A stretch of DNA of 64,000 bases from Rhina ancylostomus (Eukaryota). Below are positions 6,001 through 63,000 of this stretch, piece after piece. Made by a program: the position numbers. Numbering within the stretch: the stretch's first letter is position 1; each line of letters begins with the position of its first letter. The stretch spans positions 29,766,835 through 29,830,834 of the forward strand of contig JARFYF010000051.1 in assembly GCA_030265395.1 (NCBI GenBank), in the 5' to 3' direction.

Positions 6001-9000
6001 GTGCATTAAATGCAGAAAGTATTTTATTTCAGTTTTCCATTGAATAAAAGACAAATCATCTGGAAAAAGAAAGTACAGAAGATACATTGCGAAGAACCTA
6101 GTGGTTAGGAATAAATGATACTTAGTAACATTTTTCAATTATCACCAACTAATAGTTGCCTAAAAACAATGAGAAGTTAGAAAGTAAAAATCAGCAATGA
6201 GCTGGAAATTCCATTTCATCTTCTACTATCTTTACAGATAGAGCACTTGCACGTCTTTGCAGAAATATAGGAGTACTGTTTAGTTGATCCATTTGCACAT
6301 GTCAGCATTACTTCTTTTGTTTCAGTTGTATATTCTTGGCAGCACTCACAGTTATGCTTCATGTTATTTAGTGTGTAGTCAAACCTAAAATATAACAAGA
6401 TCACAATGGAAGAATTCAGTCAGTGAAATGTATCATCTTACTATATTATATCCACTTTAATTACAAGACAAAATGTAGCAAACTGCAATGGCATCAAGCT
6501 GTTGTGGGAATTATTTCTACAATGCATTAAATATGTAAGAACAAAGTAATTTTAACTAATTAATGATTCATTTAAACAAAAGAATCACAGACTCAAAGTA
6601 AAAGAATAAAAAGAATCCCATCTGTATAAAGTTAGCATTCTATCTTTTCATAAAATTGTATGGGTTTGCATCATTACTGAATAGATATGACTTGGCTCAC
6701 AATTCACACAAAGACTTTTCACAGATTGTCTGGCACCAACCTAGAGATATCACCACTTGCCTTTTGTCTTGCCAGTCACTGGCAGCTGTGATATATGAGA
6801 CCAGATAAGTAAGTTTGGCCATTTCCCTAGATCTTGCTTCCCCCTACCTCAGTCAGGGACACATTGACTGTTTTCTTGGGAAAGTGGGAAGATAGAGCAA
6901 TGTCAAAAGGGGAACACACATCTTCTAGTAAACACCATTCTGGAGTTTTCTATATGGCCATATTGTCTCAGCAACTTTTGTTCTTTGTTAGATACATCAT
7001 TATATTTAACCCATCACAAGATTATTAAATTTACTTACATGGAAAATGAGTTGCATTTTCCTTCACATGAATTCACTTCAACTGCTGCTGTACAATTATC
7101 CTTGGTGATTGTGAGCTGTTTGGGTTGAACCTTACATGCTTCCACTGTTGGAAAAAACATGGAAATTAGGAGAAATCAGAGAATTTCACAATCATTTCAT
7201 GTTATGAAAAGCTATCATTATAAATAAATGGATAGAAGAGTTGAATGAGATGCATGTTTTCCTTCTCTAAAAGAACAAAACATTACTGTTATTGTCTCGA
7301 GATTCAGCAGGTGAAAGCAAATGAGCTCAGAGGATAATAGAATAATGAGAAGTCTGTTCATTGATACTGATATGCAAAACAATTTTATATTATTGTTAGA
7401 ATACAAATTTTTGTTAAGGAGACCAGTCGAGGTGTGGAAATGTCAGTCTATGGTAGGGCAGGACTTCTGACCAGTAATGTGTATCATGAGCCCTGCTGTA
7501 ATTCATTTGGTTGTTCCACAGTGAAATATAATGGGGCCAGATGCATCAGTCCTTTGTAAGATTAATGTAAAAAATTCAATACTAATGCTTTTTTAAAAAA
7601 ATCAGCATGTACAACTGTACTGAGTTCTCTGGAAGAGTATTTATTTCCTTCTTAAGAACACTGCAGATCAAGGAACTGAGTATTCTGGCACATTTAAATT
7701 TTCAAATCAGGTGCCATTACCCTCAGGTGGATCACAGGATTAAAAAATGGATCACTATCTCTGCTCCTTTAAATAAATGCCACTCTGCAGACTGGAAAAC
7801 TTATCATTGTTGGGTCATATGGGAAAATCATTTGGTTAAAGTGGGTCACTTGAAAAAAAGTTTGAAAACCACTGCTCCAGTGAATATTTACATCAGATTC
7901 ATCATCTGACATCACAGTAGGCAAGAAAGTCTAAGCAGTTCACAGTTAAATTCAATACTTCTGAAGTCTGGTCCCTTTTGTGAGATAGGAAGTGCATATT
8001 ATGAAAATGAAGACATTTAGAGCAGGAGAAATTTGAAGTTGTTACACAGTCTGCAGGGAGAATATATTTGTCAATTAAACTGCAGTGCTCAAAATGTAAC
8101 TACTTACGTTTCGAGGGACAGGTATAGCAGCAGTGATATTCATCCCAGTTTTTCTTAGACTAAACACAAAGGAAATATTGAACTGTTACTGTTGTATACA
8201 TATTATTTAAATATCAATTGTAATACATTATTTCATTGTTAAAATATATTTTCATACCGGAGATACACAGAAAATCCAAACTTAGGCAATAATTATAAAT
8301 AAATTATGGTTACATTTTCTCGCATGCCATCCGGATTAACAATATTTTTTCAAACATGTTGTTTTGGAAGATAGTTTTATGAATATTTATTCTTGTTATA
8401 AATGACAGGGATTCAGAAATAAGGAGAGGAAATGCTATTAGAACAATTTCAGTTGTGCAGTTAAATATGGACTGGTTAGGCCAAATGCCCTGTTTTTATG
8501 TTCCAACTTCTAGACATTTATCAGTGCTTAGTTCTGTGCTTCTTTCAGTTGGATTCTGGATTCTGCTGTACATCTTAGTCATTCTATGTAAAATTCTGAT
8601 TGTGTTTTAAAATTCTCCTTCAGTTTTATCTTAATTTTGTACAGCCTGACATATATCATATGCTCAGTAACTTTTAGGTAGATAGTTTTGACCAATTTTA
8701 ACCAAAAAGAATACTGTAGAATGAAACAGTTTTCTGACCAATGTCAGTGGTAAATCTTTCCTGCTGAGAATCATTGTAGAAAATAGCTGTGTGTTTCCAA
8801 TCCCTCCAATACATCTTTGCTCTAACTTAAACAGTGCTTTACAATTACAATATGCTGATTGTGGTTAGCCTTTGCATTCTGTAGTTATATGGCAGCTAAC
8901 ATATTGACATTGGGCAGAATTTACATAAATTGGTGCATGTAAATTGGTGCATTTGTGGCCCAAGGCCACAATTTGGTATTCATTAGCGCCCAGGGCCTCT

Positions 9001-60000: not shown

Positions 60001-63000
60001 CATCACAACGATCATATCACCTTCAATTTTCACGAAAATATGCTCCAAGTTGCCATCTGAACCATGACGAATCTCCACGTTAAATTCTTCTGTGCCACCA
60101 AGGCACTGGCGACTCAGAATATAATTGCATGTTGAAGTAAAATGATAAAATTCATCGGTGTAGGTCCTGACTGCCCCTTGACCCCATATACTGCAGGTAT
60201 CTGAAGAAATATAAAGAAAACAATCCCCTCCATTACAACAGCTCTTTGAACACAATCTTTAGATTACCTTGGTATTGTTTGCAAGATAAATGGATAAAGT
60301 AGTTGAATGCTCATATATCTTGTAATGAGAGACGTATATACTTACGAGTTCCTTCGTCTGCTGTGCTTGAAACTTCCCTTGTAAATCTAAAGGTTTGTGT
60401 GATTGCCGATCCATCCAGATCTAGCAGGAAAATATGTTAAAATTAAATCTGGTTCATACAAAACAAGAGAGTGCAGAAGTTTTTGCCTTCTTGACCAATT
60501 ATTATTCCCTTTCATTTAGTACCCATCTCGCTTGTAGTAATTGTGGCTATAAAGTTCAGTCTCTAATATTTTAATTTTATACAGAATTATCTGTCAGCTA
60601 ACAAAGTGGCATTTACATGGGGAGTATATCATATCAGTATAATTATTAGTTATATTAAGTTTTCATTTAAACTAAACATTTTATGTTGGAGCAATTGACG
60701 CCATTGGATATGAATCGAAGTCCTTGAGTTACTATTTTCTATGCTTCATGCAAAATATTCTTACTTGCTATTGTTGCTAAATATCTTAATGTTTTGCTTT
60801 AACATCTTACATATCTCATGGAAAAGGAAATGTATTACTCTATTTCTTTAGACTGAAATAAATGTGTCAATCATTCTGATACAGAAAAACACAGAGTGGA
60901 CAACCGACCCATTCTAAAATATGAATGGACAACTACCTGTATTTGTAGTATTCAATGACCTGATTAACTGGATATCTATTTAGTTTAAAGTAACAACCAA
61001 AGAAAATATTCCTCTCTTTCATAATAATGTTTCTTCTTAAATATGAACTGGACAAAATCATCCTGATCAATCTCATTCCTATGTATGGGGTATGAAAGAA
61101 GAGGCAAAATCTTGGCTTTAATTTTTCTGAATCATGCAGCTTTTGTACAGATATGGTGTCATGTACCAGATGCATGCTTTGCTTGTGAGACTTAAACCTA
61201 TCAGTGATTTAAGTGCAGGTTCATTGCAGTCTTGGCTGGAGATGTTGTTTGCAGCTTTTAATTTGATATTAGTGACATGGAAGAGACTGGAATACTGTTA
61301 TAGTACTCAAAGACAAGCCTTAAATCACAGTGACTTTGAGGATGTACTTACTCTCTGCTTGGAAATTATTTACTTCAGCCAATAATCTATTGTTATATTT
61401 TCTGGAAGCCACATCACATAAATTTGTAGCAATCCTCAACGGTCAGCTTATTGCAATTTTTGGGTGAATTTTTGTCCATTATTCAACTCATACATGGTGG
61501 GTTAGGTGTTATCTGTATGGAGTTTTGGAGTCAAATATGCCCATAGATGTGGAAAAATTAGTTCACTAGTTTCAATGACTGACCAAGACATTGGGTGGAA
61601 AGGATTGGGATGGAGTGGCAGAAAATATTGGAAATATTCGGTTGACAATGCACAAAGAGAAAACAAAGATCTCACCAGAAGACCTAAGATGGTCGATACA
61701 CCTGCTTTTCATTATGCACAATGAATAAACAGACATGATTTTCAATCTCCCAAACATGAAGTTCTCATGGGACATTGGCCCCATGGATATAATATTTTAC
61801 TTAAGCATTCTAAATGCTAACTTACCATAGCTGTTCGAAGAATAATCACGTTTTACTCGATTGTAGGCAAAAACATCCTCTGCATTAAACAATAATCAGT
61901 TTTAGTCAATTGTTATAGGATATTTAAAGTTTATTATTTATTTAGCACCTAATCGAGGTTACATTTTTGATATCCTCTAGAATATTACAAAGCTTCTGAT
62001 GGTGCAGTCGATAAATAATATGAAACAATATTTGCTGCAATAAAAATAAAGTAAAAGTCAAAAAAATGTACAAATTAAGAAATTCTTCCAACCATGCTTT
62101 TTGCAGTTTCATATCCTTGTATAACTACCAACCAAAAGTGCCCGCTATATCTCTGGCAGCCCTTTATGACAGCAAGGAATACATTGTGAACAAGTTAATT
62201 GTAACATAACAATGAATTAATCAAGAGTTATAATATTACAAATAGTGAACATTAATATATTGATATAATAATGAAATATAATAATATAATAATGAAATAT
62301 AAGCTAAGTTGGTTTCAATAATTTCTTTAAGACATTAATCTCTGAAATGTATTACAAATTAATTTCCTCATTCTGTGTCATGAATGTGTGAACCCCAAGG
62401 ACTGGGGTTTTCTTGTTAAGGTTTCAATCAGGGTAAATGTTCTTTTGATTTAGAAAATACTGATGATGGAACGAATGCATAACTAAGTCTGATCTCTCCA
62501 CCCCATTTTGCAATACAATCTGCAAATCTGTAACAGTTTAGGTACAAAGACATTCATACCAGCATTATTTCAGTAATTTTGTCCAATTTGGTTTGAAAAT
62601 TATCAATGAATTTAAGGTACTGACAATCTATAGCATGCAGATAATAAACAGTAATTCATTGTGTGGATGATCAACCAGATATTGCTGGGTAATTTCCTCG
62701 ACATTGTTAAAAGCCATCCAGATTCCCTTTCAATCTCCCTGGGGAAAATCAAGAAATTACTGAGTTTACATTGTAACCACAGATTATGTAGGGTTGATAA
62801 TTCCTGCTACAAAGATCCTGCCAATGTGCTATTTAATGATCCAGATGTAAAACTCAATGCCCAGAAAAAATTGGCTATTCAAACATGGAGTTCCACTTTG
62901 CTCCGAGTGAGTTGTTCCTCAATCTTTTCTATAAATTCTAAATGTCAGTTTTTCCTTACTTTCTGTATCTGTTTTCTTTCTCCTAATCCTTGTCAAAAAA

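What the first reader, a model, noticed from the sequence alone, without database searches (positions are those of the whole stretch)
6216..61879. MUC19-type mucin that also carries CysD and a full D4 assembly
Seen: D1-D2-D'D3, PTS, a WxxW CysD exon (23496-23869), VWD4-C8-TIL (22368-14505), a single VWC and a CK. Established, from memory: mammalian MUC19/porcine submaxillary mucin has three VWDs, PTS, VWC and CK with no CysD or D4, whereas CysD and D4 typify MUC2/MUC5AC/MUC5B. The D1-D3 motifs, the exon-per-repeat PTS and the single VWC here look MUC19-like. Inference: either an ancestral MUC19 architecture kept in this lineage, or a chimera. Fish MUC19/spiggin relatives may share it, so novelty needs checking.
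[Added by the scan's program, not by the reader: the finding's places include an assembly gap (unread letters, written N; its length is only estimated) at 9706 to 9805, 10968 to 10977, 11277 to 11864, 12416 to 12439, 14797 to 14806, 23937 to 24036. Whether the letters on both sides are continuous or in frame is not known: test that first.]
Basis: partly seen in the sequence, partly recalled or inferred. Interest (0 to 1): 0.75.

Follow-up and report, generated by a model that had tools for sequence, protein, structure and literature searches.

The report
Compact gel-forming mucin gene, family unresolved
This is an apparently intact gene for a mucus-forming protein with all the usual building blocks and a short sugar-carrying middle split into many tiny exons; it is an ordinary kind of gene, and whether it is MUC19-like or MUC2/MUC5-like could not be settled here.

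Summary
The minus strand from 61879 to 6216 carries a phase-consistent chain of 51 exons, plus one cut by a gap. It encodes D1-D2-D'D3, a PTS region, one CysD, a pre-D4 Cys-rich module, VWD4-C8-TIL, one VWC and a cystine knot. The chain is about 2,045 codons, with AG/GT at every junction and no in-frame stop.

The PTS is made of at least 11 mini-exons of 42-81 nt, all phase 1-1, inside a 1.1-1.5 kb genomic repeat.

Two exons hold assembly gaps. One is in phase as written. The other needs a gap length that is a multiple of three. All other gaps are intronic. The gap just upstream of the CysD exon has identical 17-nt flanks, which argues against a chimeric join.

The "MUC19-type" label could not be tested. 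No MUC19, spiggin or otogelin sequences were reachable, and the flanks hold no neighbouring genes. Exon-by-exon scores against solved MUC2, MUC5AC and MUC5B show no consistent preference. By published criteria, CysD plus a fourth VWD means Muc2/Muc5-type. A fourth VWD in spiggins and multi-exon mucin domains are already in print. Interest is modest.

The parts
61826..61879 (-). First visible coding exon (pre-VWD1), phase 1 in and 1 out. Its AG acceptor means an upstream exon 1 exists but was not found.
   Evidence: No ATG-started exon with a phase-1 donor in 61880-64000.
57501..60200 (-). VWD1 in three exons: 60200-59972, 59515-59398, 57579-57501 (the last holds a CGLCG motif).
   Evidence: Pfam VWD E 7.8e-8 and 1.9e-4. 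The middle exon has no Pfam hit and is placed by position and phase. PDB: MUC5B 61.9, MUC5AC 37.1, MUC2 31.1 bits.
54307..57360 (-). Linker exon 57360-57269; C8-1 exon 55490-55289 (holds gap 55344-55396); TIL1 exon 55115-54990; TIL1-end/E1 exon 54427-54307.
   Evidence: TIL E 1.3e-8. C8-1 was read by eye only and not sent to Pfam, because it holds X. Phases. Paralogy of 54427-54307 with the other E-module exons.
52239..54212 (-). VWD2 in five exons: 54212-54074, 53939-53847, 53768-53696, 53608-53471, 52394-52239.
   Evidence: Pfam VWD 1.1e-5, 7.2e-3, 6.3e-4. Exon ends. PDB.
46191..50358 (-). C8-2 (50358-50264, 48382-48256); TIL2/E2 (46578-46332); small exon 46249-46191.
   Evidence: C8 E 3.8e-3 and 6.6e-9; TIL 1e-7. 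PDB. Phases.
45453..46012 (-). D' (TIL'/E') in two exons: 46012-45933, 45601-45453.
   Evidence: TIL E 2.7e-5. The first exon has no Pfam hit. Phases.
41036..45357 (-). VWD3 in four exons: 45357-45219, 43827-43723, 43598-43410, 41275-41036.
   Evidence: Pfam VWD 2.3e-9 and 7.6e-6. PDB D3 constructs: MUC5AC 83.7, MUC5B 79.5, MUC2 78.2, VWF 50.9 bits; VWD3 core exon 34.1, 20.3, 29.7, 18.6 bits.
36923..40956 (-). C8-3 (40956-40800); TIL3/E3 (39601-39476, 37830-37689); small exon 36954-36923 that ends the D3 assembly in phase 1.
   Evidence: C8 E 7.9e-14. 37830-37689 is 38% identical to the TIL2/E2 exon, E 2e-7. 39601-39476 has no detectable similarity and is placed by position and phase only.
25732..36470 (-). 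PTS region. Eleven complete mini-exons: 36470-36390, 34947-34894, 31820-31761, 30710-30651, 29993-29952, 29173-29114, 28788-28738, 27988-27935, 27495-27454, 26679-26620, 25791-25732. One more is cut by a gap (31434-31384). All are phase 1 in and 1 out, set in a 1.1-1.5 kb genomic repeat.
   Evidence: With no phase imposed, all 19 Ser/Thr/Pro-rich, splice-flanked open stretches have acceptor phase 1, and 17 of 19 are 1-1.
23496..23869 (-). CysD exon: WxxW CysD, about 20 PTS residues, then the first cysteines of the pre-D4 region. Phase 1 in, 0 out.
   Evidence: Mucin2_WxxW E 4.3e-15. PDB CysD of MUC5B 38.3, MUC5AC 29.5, MUC2 27.3 bits. Atlas top clusters are WxxW families, 0.92.
22197..22368 (-). 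Pre-D4 Cys-rich module. I recall it being called VWCN in MUC2.
   Evidence: Aligns to the stretch just before VWD4 in MUC2 C-terminal constructs, 32.9 bits.
17502..22091 (-). VWD4 in three exons: 22091-21859, 18959-18776, 17715-17502. It starts ...WGKRHY where MUC2 has WGDPHY.
   Evidence: Pfam VWD 1.1e-14 and 5.5e-5. MUC2 VWD4 55.1 bits. Phases.
14505..16215 (-). C8-4 (16215-16037); TIL4 (14843-14770, which holds gap 14797-14806; and 14611-14505).
   Evidence: C8 E 9.9e-8; TIL 4.4e-4. Reading across the gap.
8108..14385 (-). Single VWC in three exons: 14385-14354, 10260-10150, 8159-8108. They are separated by a 4.1-kb intron (with reverse-transcriptase debris and three gaps) and a 2-kb intron (one gap).
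   Evidence: Cysteine pattern and the only phase-fitting path. No Pfam or PDB hit for the main exon.
6216..7144 (-). C-terminal cystine knot in two exons: 7144-7039 and 6384-6216, with the stop at 6218-6216.
   Evidence: DAN 1.6e-5 and Cys_knot 8e-3. Cys_knot 2.9e-5. VWF CTCK 32.6 bits, E 6.1e-7; MUC2 25.5 bits.
6022..6027 (-). AATAAA about 190 nt after the stop codon; a possible polyadenylation signal.
   Evidence: Pattern match only.

Best explanation
One apparently intact gene for a secreted, polymerising (gel-forming) mucin, incomplete at its 5' end in this window.

Architecture: D1-D2-D'D3, a multi-exon PTS, one CysD, a pre-D4 module, VWD4-C8-TIL, one VWC and a cystine knot.

Likely mode of action, inferred from the family and not shown here:
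- The cystine knot makes tail-to-tail dimers.
- The D1-D3 assemblies make disulfide-linked multimers.
- The Ser/Thr/Pro exons are O-glycosylated.
- CysD and D4 add non-covalent or covalent cross-links.

The PTS mini-exons are all phase 1-1. Adding, losing or skipping any of them keeps the frame, so PTS length can be tuned by exon duplication or alternative splicing (inference).

By architecture it is of the Muc2/Muc5 type. Its true clade (Muc2/Muc5, about 0.5; Muc19/spiggin, about 0.3; other, about 0.2) is open.
For: - Domain hits on 20 of 40 ORFs; 9 of 10 exon-level PDB searches hit mucins or VWF.
- Splicing: 49 of 50 junctions are in phase, with AG/GT at all and no in-frame stop. The one failure lies at a 10-N gap inside an exon.
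- D3 to PTS to CysD to D4: the D3 assembly ends in phase 1, all PTS mini-exons are 1-1, and the CysD exon starts in phase 1 and hands phase 0 to the pre-D4 exon.
- Continuity at the gap before the CysD exon: 17 identical nt on both flanks. The PTS repeat family is found on both sides of the 978-N gap.
- Copy number: no second CysD, no fifth VWD, and no start or terminal exon in between.
- In D3 it scores higher with mucins than with VWF: 78-84 against 51 bits and 57 against 35 bits.
Against: - No transcript evidence.
- No exon 1 or signal peptide was found.
- Splice sites come from my own crude matrix built from recalled consensus frequencies. Low-scoring sites were chosen with the phase in view, so the chain shows that a consistent model exists, not that it is used.
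- Several exons have no independent domain hit and are placed by position and phase: 59515-59398, 57360-57269, 53939-53847, 53768-53696, 46249-46191, 46012-45933, 43827-43723, 39601-39476, 36954-36923, and the VWC exons.
- Two exons are interrupted by gaps.
- The PTS array is collapsed in the assembly, so its real length is unknown.
- The joined coding sequence was never searched or folded as a whole.
Confidence: 0.78

Rival explanations
1. One reading: the gene belongs to the MUC19/spiggin clade and keeps an ancestral architecture (CysD and D4) that mammalian MUC19 lost.
For: - One VWC directly before the CK, as in the UniProt domain list for human MUC19 quoted in PMC10557577 (figure legend).
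- A PTS split into repeat-sized exons. That human MUC19 has very many small exons is recalled, from no call.
- No consistent preference for MUC2, MUC5AC or MUC5B.
- Lang 2016 reports spiggins with a PTS and a fourth VWD, and three Muc19 paralogs in a cartilaginous fish (passages).
Against: - In the same paper CysD is the mark of Muc2/Muc5 types. No paper found or 77 describes a CysD in a Muc19 or spiggin protein.
- The pre-D4 module and VWD4 align well to MUC2's.
- Equal distance to MUC2 and MUC5 is also expected for an early-diverged Muc2/Muc5 gene.
- No tree and no synteny were possible.
Confidence: 0.3
2. It is a compact member of the Muc2/Muc5 group that has reduced its CysD and VWC count and broken its central region into exons.
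For: - It meets both published architectural marks, a fourth VWD-C8-TIL and a CysD (criteria from Lang 2016, and Jevtov 2014, PMC4200417).
- The CysD and the D1 exon score best with MUC5B.
- Frog Muc2/Muc5 paralogs vary widely in CysD and D4 content (Lang 2016), so architecture in this group is labile.
Against: - In Lang 2006 (PMC1552070) all mucins known then except chicken Muc13 had the PTS in one large exon. Here it is split.
- There is no CysD directly after D3 as in MUC2 (recalled).
- Preferences among MUC2, MUC5AC and MUC5B change from exon to exon.
Confidence: 0.45
3. It is a scaffold chimera: the 5' half of one mucin paralog was joined through the repetitive PTS array or a 100-N gap to the 3' half of a neighbouring paralog.
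For: - Five gaps lie between the D3 assembly and the CysD exon.
- One contig piece, 31384-32892, starts and ends with the same 71 nt, the sign of a collapsed repeat.
- Mucin paralogs often lie in tandem on one strand (Lang 2016).
Against: - The gap 67 nt upstream of the CysD exon has identical 17-nt flanks, as overlapping contig ends would.
- Two further 100-N gaps show overlaps too (10 nt exact; 39 nt at 94.9%), and a third has only a weak 6-nt one.
- The same repeat family lies on both sides of the 978-N gap.
- The phases match across the whole stretch.
Confidence: 0.07
4. It is a lineage-specific mucin of the kind annotated 'otogelin-like' (as Xenopus MucXS was), not a member of any of the five mammalian groups.
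For: [quoted passage not shown] This gene is also small for a mucin, about 2,045 codons in the assembled letters.
Against: MucXS lacks typical CysD, and otogelins lack an extensive PTS region (same paper). This gene has a canonical CysD. No otogelin sequence could be compared.
Confidence: 0.12

Closest known systems
MUC2, MUC5AC and MUC5B (four-VWD gel-forming mucins with CysD)
   Same: - D1-D2-D'D3, PTS, CysD, pre-D4 module, VWD4-C8-TIL, VWC and CK, in the same order.
- Exon-level matches to their solved structures in every Cys-rich part tested except the VWC.
   Different: - Only one CysD and one VWC are seen.
- The PTS is short in the assembly (about 200 codons) and split into 42-81 nt phase 1-1 exons, not one large exon.
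- VWD4 has GKRH where MUC2 has GDPH.
- No clear orthology to any one of the three.
MUC19, porcine submaxillary mucin and fish spiggins
   Same: - Three N-terminal VWD units, PTS, one VWC and CK.
- Some spiggins also have a fourth VWD (Lang 2016).
- Spiggin and Muc19 share synteny (Kawahara and Nishida 2007, PMC2180178, passages).
   Different: - Mammalian MUC19 lacks D4 and CysD.
- Human MUC19 carries its 30-bp repeats in a coding exon of about 12 kb (PMC10557577).
Chicken Muc13 and Xenopus MucXS (mucin domains encoded by many exons)
   Same: Each exon encodes about one PTS repeat unit (Lang 2006), or the central domain is multi-exonic (Dubaissi 2018). Lang 2006 proposed length control by alternative splicing.
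   Different: Muc13 is a transmembrane SEA-domain mucin. MucXS lacks typical CysD and has 39 Cys-rich repeats of its own.
von Willebrand factor
   Same: D assemblies, VWC and CTCK. The CK exon scores best with VWF CTCK.
   Different: The exon chain between D3 and D4 has no A domains. The D3 exons score lower with VWF than with mucins.

Membership tests
Gel-forming (polymerising) mucin | Three N-terminal VWD-C8-TIL units | tested here: met
   Pfam VWD, C8 and TIL hits in the right order on exon ORFs. C8-1 was read by eye only.
Gel-forming (polymerising) mucin | PTS (Pro/Thr/Ser-rich) domain between the Cys-rich ends | tested here: met
   At least 11 splice-flanked exons whose translations are 74-92% Ser, Thr or Pro. 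O-glycosylation itself is not testable here.
Gel-forming (polymerising) mucin | C-terminal cystine knot | tested here: met
   Cys_knot and DAN hits. VWF CTCK and MUC2 in PDB.
Gel-forming (polymerising) mucin | Signal peptide | tested here: inconclusive
   No exon 1 was found in the 2.1 kb upstream of 61879. It may lie outside the window.
Muc2/Muc5 type (criteria of Lang et al. 2016) | Fourth VWD-C8-TIL unit after the PTS | tested here: met
   VWD E 1.1e-14, C8 9.9e-8, TIL 4.4e-4. MUC2 D4 78.2 bits.
Muc2/Muc5 type (criteria of Lang et al. 2016) | CysD (Mucin2_WxxW) in the PTS region | tested here: met
   E 4.3e-15 over the full profile. PDB CysD hits. One copy only.
Muc2/Muc5 type (criteria of Lang et al. 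2016) | N-terminal D1-D3 groups with Muc2 or Muc5 in a tree | not tested
   No reference sequences could be obtained. Exon-level PDB scores show no consistent preference.
Muc2/Muc5 type (criteria of Lang et al. 2016) | Location in the Muc6-Muc2-Muc5-Tollip cluster | tested here: inconclusive
   The flanks hold only reverse-transcriptase and other non-mucin ORFs.
MUC19/spiggin | N-terminal D1-D3 groups with Muc19/spiggin in a tree | not tested
   No MUC19 or spiggin sequence was reachable. No PDB chain named MUC19 appeared among the hits of the 10 exon-level searches.
MUC19/spiggin | Synteny with the genes flanking Muc19 (Kawahara and Nishida 2007) | tested here: inconclusive
   No neighbouring gene lies in the window.
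MUC19/spiggin | Mammalian-type architecture: no fourth VWD, no CysD | tested here: not met
   Both are present. This does not define the clade, since some spiggins have a fourth VWD (Lang 2016).
Otogelin / otogelin-like | No extensive O-glycosylated PTS domain and no typical CysD (Dubaissi 2018) | tested here: not met
   PTS exons and a canonical CysD are present. No sequence-level comparison was possible.
von Willebrand factor | A domains between D3 and D4 | tested here: not met
   The phase-complete exon chain from D3 to D4 holds only PTS and CysD exons. ORFs outside the chain were not scanned for VWA.

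The most novel reading that the evidence does not exclude
The gene is a true Muc19-clade member that still carries a CysD, the pre-D4 module and a complete D4 assembly, with a PTS built from phase 1-1 repeat exons. 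That would show that the common ancestor of all vertebrate gel-forming mucins already had the full MUC2/MUC5-like architecture. It would also show that mammalian MUC19 (and perhaps MUC6) reached its shorter form by loss.
Probability: 0.3. Interest if true: 0.5.

Novelty: new member of a known kind. Interest (0 to 1): 0.3.

Why it matters
If the clade were settled, this gene would show how domain content changed during the early radiation of vertebrate gel-forming mucins. The question is whether CysD and D4 are ancestral and were lost in MUC19 and MUC6, or were gained in Muc2/Muc5.

Apart from that, it is a clean example of a PTS domain built from symmetric phase 1-1 exons in a four-VWD, CysD-bearing mucin. 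In this arrangement exon duplication, loss or skipping changes glycosylated length without breaking the frame.

As it stands it is an ordinary mucin gene in a draft assembly.

Tried and rejected
I went ORF by ORF instead.
The splice analysis was then done from coordinates only.
- PDB chain sequences cannot be fetched as proteins. No local alignments or trees with MUC2, MUC5 or VWF were therefore possible.
- The protein Atlas, on the D1 exon and the CysD exon, gave only generic 'VWD' and 'WxxW' clusters from Chordata. It did not discriminate between mucin groups.
- Eight further Cys-containing ORFs between TIL4 and the CK gave no Pfam hit. They are not in the model. A tempting stretch at 10838-10746 has no usable donor.
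- A suspected frameshift in VWD2 near 53615 turned out to be a missed 73-nt exon.
- An exon 1 search upstream of 61879 found nothing.
- Literature searches for MUC19 exon counts found nothing usable. Searches for a CysD in Muc19 or spiggin found no such description. The PNAS 2007 mucin-evolution paper is not held.
- Structure prediction, fold search and complex prediction were not used. No open question here turned on a fold or a complex.
- The joined spliced model was not built, searched or folded. All searches were exon by exon.

Full report
**Setting**

The window has 36.9% G+C, a CpG observed/expected ratio of 0.19, and 15 runs of N totalling 2,847 letters. That fits a methylated vertebrate-type genome in draft assembly. 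I do not take it for human. The best exon-level matches to human mucins in the PDB score only 20-84 bits. The organism was not determined. Reverse-transcriptase debris is present (RVT_1, E 5.4e-10, at 63029-63484 on the plus strand).

**Checking the observation**

All evidence lies on the minus strand. 20 of 40 ORFs gave a mucin-type Pfam domain:
- Four independent VWD starts, at 60258, 54253, 45377 and 22368.
- C8 and TIL hits after each VWD.
- A full-length Mucin2_WxxW match (E 4.3e-15) on 23906-23466.
- Cystine-knot hits on the last two exons.

The other 20 ORFs gave nothing, or chance hits near E 0.1.

Of ten exon-level searches of the solved-structure sequences, nine hit mucins, VWF or FCGBP at the expected modules. 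The putative VWC exon hit nothing at E<=1.

A local tblastn of every exon against the window found only the other D-module exons. The assembled letters therefore hold four VWD and one CysD, and nothing mucin-like in either flank.

**Gene model**

I scored GT and AG sites with a simple matrix built from recalled consensus frequencies. I then read the phases from coordinates alone. The result is 51 exons, from 61879-61826 to 6384-6216, plus one PTS exon cut by a gap. In total this is about 6,138 nt, or about 2,045 codons.
- Every exon has AG before it and GT after it.
- None has an in-frame stop.
- 49 of 50 junctions are in phase.

Caveats:
- Low-scoring sites were picked with the phase in view.
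- Ten or so exons have no domain hit of their own.
- The joined coding sequence was deliberately not built, searched or folded. All searches were exon by exon.

**The gaps**

Two gaps lie inside exons.
- 55344-55396 sits in the C8-1 exon (55490-55289). That exon is open in one frame on both sides and in phase as written.
- 14797-14806 sits in the first TIL4 exon (14843-14770). The upstream part is in the frame set by its acceptor and the downstream part in the frame set by its donor. The two agree only if the true gap length is a multiple of three, not ten. This is the single phase failure.

A third gap (31284-31383) cuts a PTS mini-exon. All others are intronic.

The 100-N gap at 23937-24036 lies 67 nt upstream of the CysD exon, between the N-terminal half and the C-terminal half. 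The 17 nt on its two sides are identical, as overlapping contig ends would be. The 100-N gaps at 44194 (10 nt exact) and 27529 (39 nt at 94.9%) behave alike; the one at 36147 shows only a weak 6-nt overlap.

The piece 31384-32892 begins and ends with the same 71 nt. This is the mark of a collapsed tandem repeat, so the real number of PTS units is unknown.

**The PTS region**

Between 36470 and 25732 there are at least eleven complete mini-exons of 42-81 nt. Each encodes 13-26 residues that are 74-92% Ser, Thr or Pro. They lie in a genomic repeat of about 1.1-1.5 kb, with 64-85% identity between copies.

I listed all splice-flanked, Ser/Thr/Pro-rich open stretches in any phase. All 19 had acceptor phase 1, and 17 of 19 were 1-1. 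The last D3 exon ends in phase 1 and the CysD exon starts in phase 1. Any number of mini-exons can therefore be spliced in without breaking the frame. One copy (30398-30264) keeps its donor but has lost its AG.

**The C-terminal end**

The CysD exon also encodes about 20 PTS residues and the first cysteines of the next module. The exon 22368-22197 aligns to the stretch just before VWD4 in MUC2 C-terminal constructs (32.9 bits). The next exon aligns to MUC2 VWD4 (55.1 bits). Where MUC2 has WGDPHY, this gene has WGKRHY. That GDPH is an autocleavage site is recalled, not from a call.

After C8-4 and TIL4, only one exon in 14504-10261 fits phase 1 in and phase 0 out with good sites: 14385-14354, acceptor 5.4, donor 5.0. 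Together with 10260-10150 and 8159-8108 it spells a VWC-like cysteine pattern and links TIL4 to the cystine knot in phase. So a single VWC is the simplest reading. However, 722 N lie in its two introns, and neither Pfam nor the PDB supports the main exon.

**Which mucin?**

- PDB sequences cannot be obtained.
- The Atlas gave only generic VWD and WxxW clusters.
- The flanks hold no gene.

Exon-level bit scores for MUC5AC, MUC5B, MUC2 and VWF, in that order:

| Exon | MUC5AC | MUC5B | MUC2 | VWF |
|---|---|---|---|---|
| D1 | 37.1 | 61.9 | 31.1 | 27.2 |
| VWD2 end | 39.1 | 32.7 | 28.7 | 44.8 |
| TIL2 | 72.5 | 67.4 | 74.3 | 70.4 |
| VWD3 core | 34.1 | 20.3 | 29.7 | 18.6 |
| VWD3 end | 83.7 | 79.5 | 78.2 | 50.9 |
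| C8-3 | 56.8 | 57.3 | 57.7 | 35.0 |
| CysD | 29.5 | 38.3 | 27.3 | none |

The constructs differ in length, so these are rough. The gene sits with the mucins rather than VWF in D3, but the preferred mucin changes from exon to exon. An outgroup such as a Muc19-clade gene and an early-branching Muc2/Muc5 gene would both look like this.

**What is in print**

- Lang et al. 2016 (PMC4948705; passages):
  - Muc6 and mammalian Muc19 lack the fourth VWD.
  - CysD characterises Muc2/Muc5 types.
  - Some spiggins (Muc19 relatives) have a PTS together with a fourth VWD.
  - Frog Muc2/Muc5 paralogs vary in CysD and D4 content.
- Kawahara and Nishida 2007 (PMC2180178; passages) tie spiggin to Muc19 by synteny.
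- Lang et al. 2006 (PMC1552070; passages) describe exon-per-repeat PTS in chicken Muc13 and suggest length control by splicing.
- Dubaissi et al. 2018 (PMC5789918; section 5 and passages) describe a multi-exonic central domain in the frog skin mucin MucXS, which lacks typical CysD.
- The MUC19 introgression preprint (PMC10557577; passages) gives human MUC19 a coding exon of about 12 kb with 30-bp repeats, and VWFD, VWFC and CTCK domains.

I found no description of a CysD in a Muc19 or spiggin protein. The supplements and the domain tables of Lang 2016 could not be seen and may hold exactly that.

**Verdict**

The thing is one apparently intact, 5'-incomplete gel-forming mucin gene with a compact MUC2/MUC5-style architecture, a multi-exon PTS, one CysD and probably one VWC.

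A chimeric assembly is unlikely. The MUC19 label remains an untested hypothesis, at about 0.3. Even if it is true, the fourth VWD in that clade is already known. Only the CysD and the exon-built PTS would add something.

Noticed in passing
window 31384-32892: This contig piece begins and ends with the same 71 nt at 100% identity (31384-31454 against 32822-32892). That is the signature of a collapsed tandem repeat, so the copy number of the PTS repeat unit is unresolved.
   Followed up: partly
window gaps 23937-24036, 44194-44293, 36147-36246, 27529-27628: Four of the six gaps of exactly 100 N have flanks that repeat each other: 17, 10 and 6 nt exact, and 39 nt at 94.9%. It looks as if overlapping contig ends were not merged.
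   Followed up: yes
window 63029-63484 (+) and 12387-12067 (-): Reverse-transcriptase fragments of LINE type: RVT_1 E 5.4e-10 and E 0.033. The second lies in the 4.1-kb intron inside the VWC. Other ORFs look like LINE tails by eye (59087-58830, 24812-24573) but gave no Pfam hit.
   Followed up: partly
window 22091-22060 (-): VWD4 begins ...WGKRHY where MUC2 has WGDPHY, so the GDPH motif is absent. The role of GDPH in autocleavage is recalled, not from a call.
   Followed up: no
window 30398-30264 (-): This copy of the PTS mini-exon has an intact donor (30293) but no AG acceptor. It is probably a dead exon copy within the repeat array.
   Followed up: partly
window 40956-40800 (-): By eye, the C8-3 exon has a cysteine spacing that differs from the usual C8 pattern: two cysteines fewer in the middle and one extra near the end. 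It was not compared residue by residue with references.
   Followed up: no
window 61880-64000: No exon 1 or signal-peptide candidate (an ATG-started open frame with a phase-1 donor) lies upstream of the first visible exon. The 5' end of the gene probably lies outside the window.
   Followed up: yes
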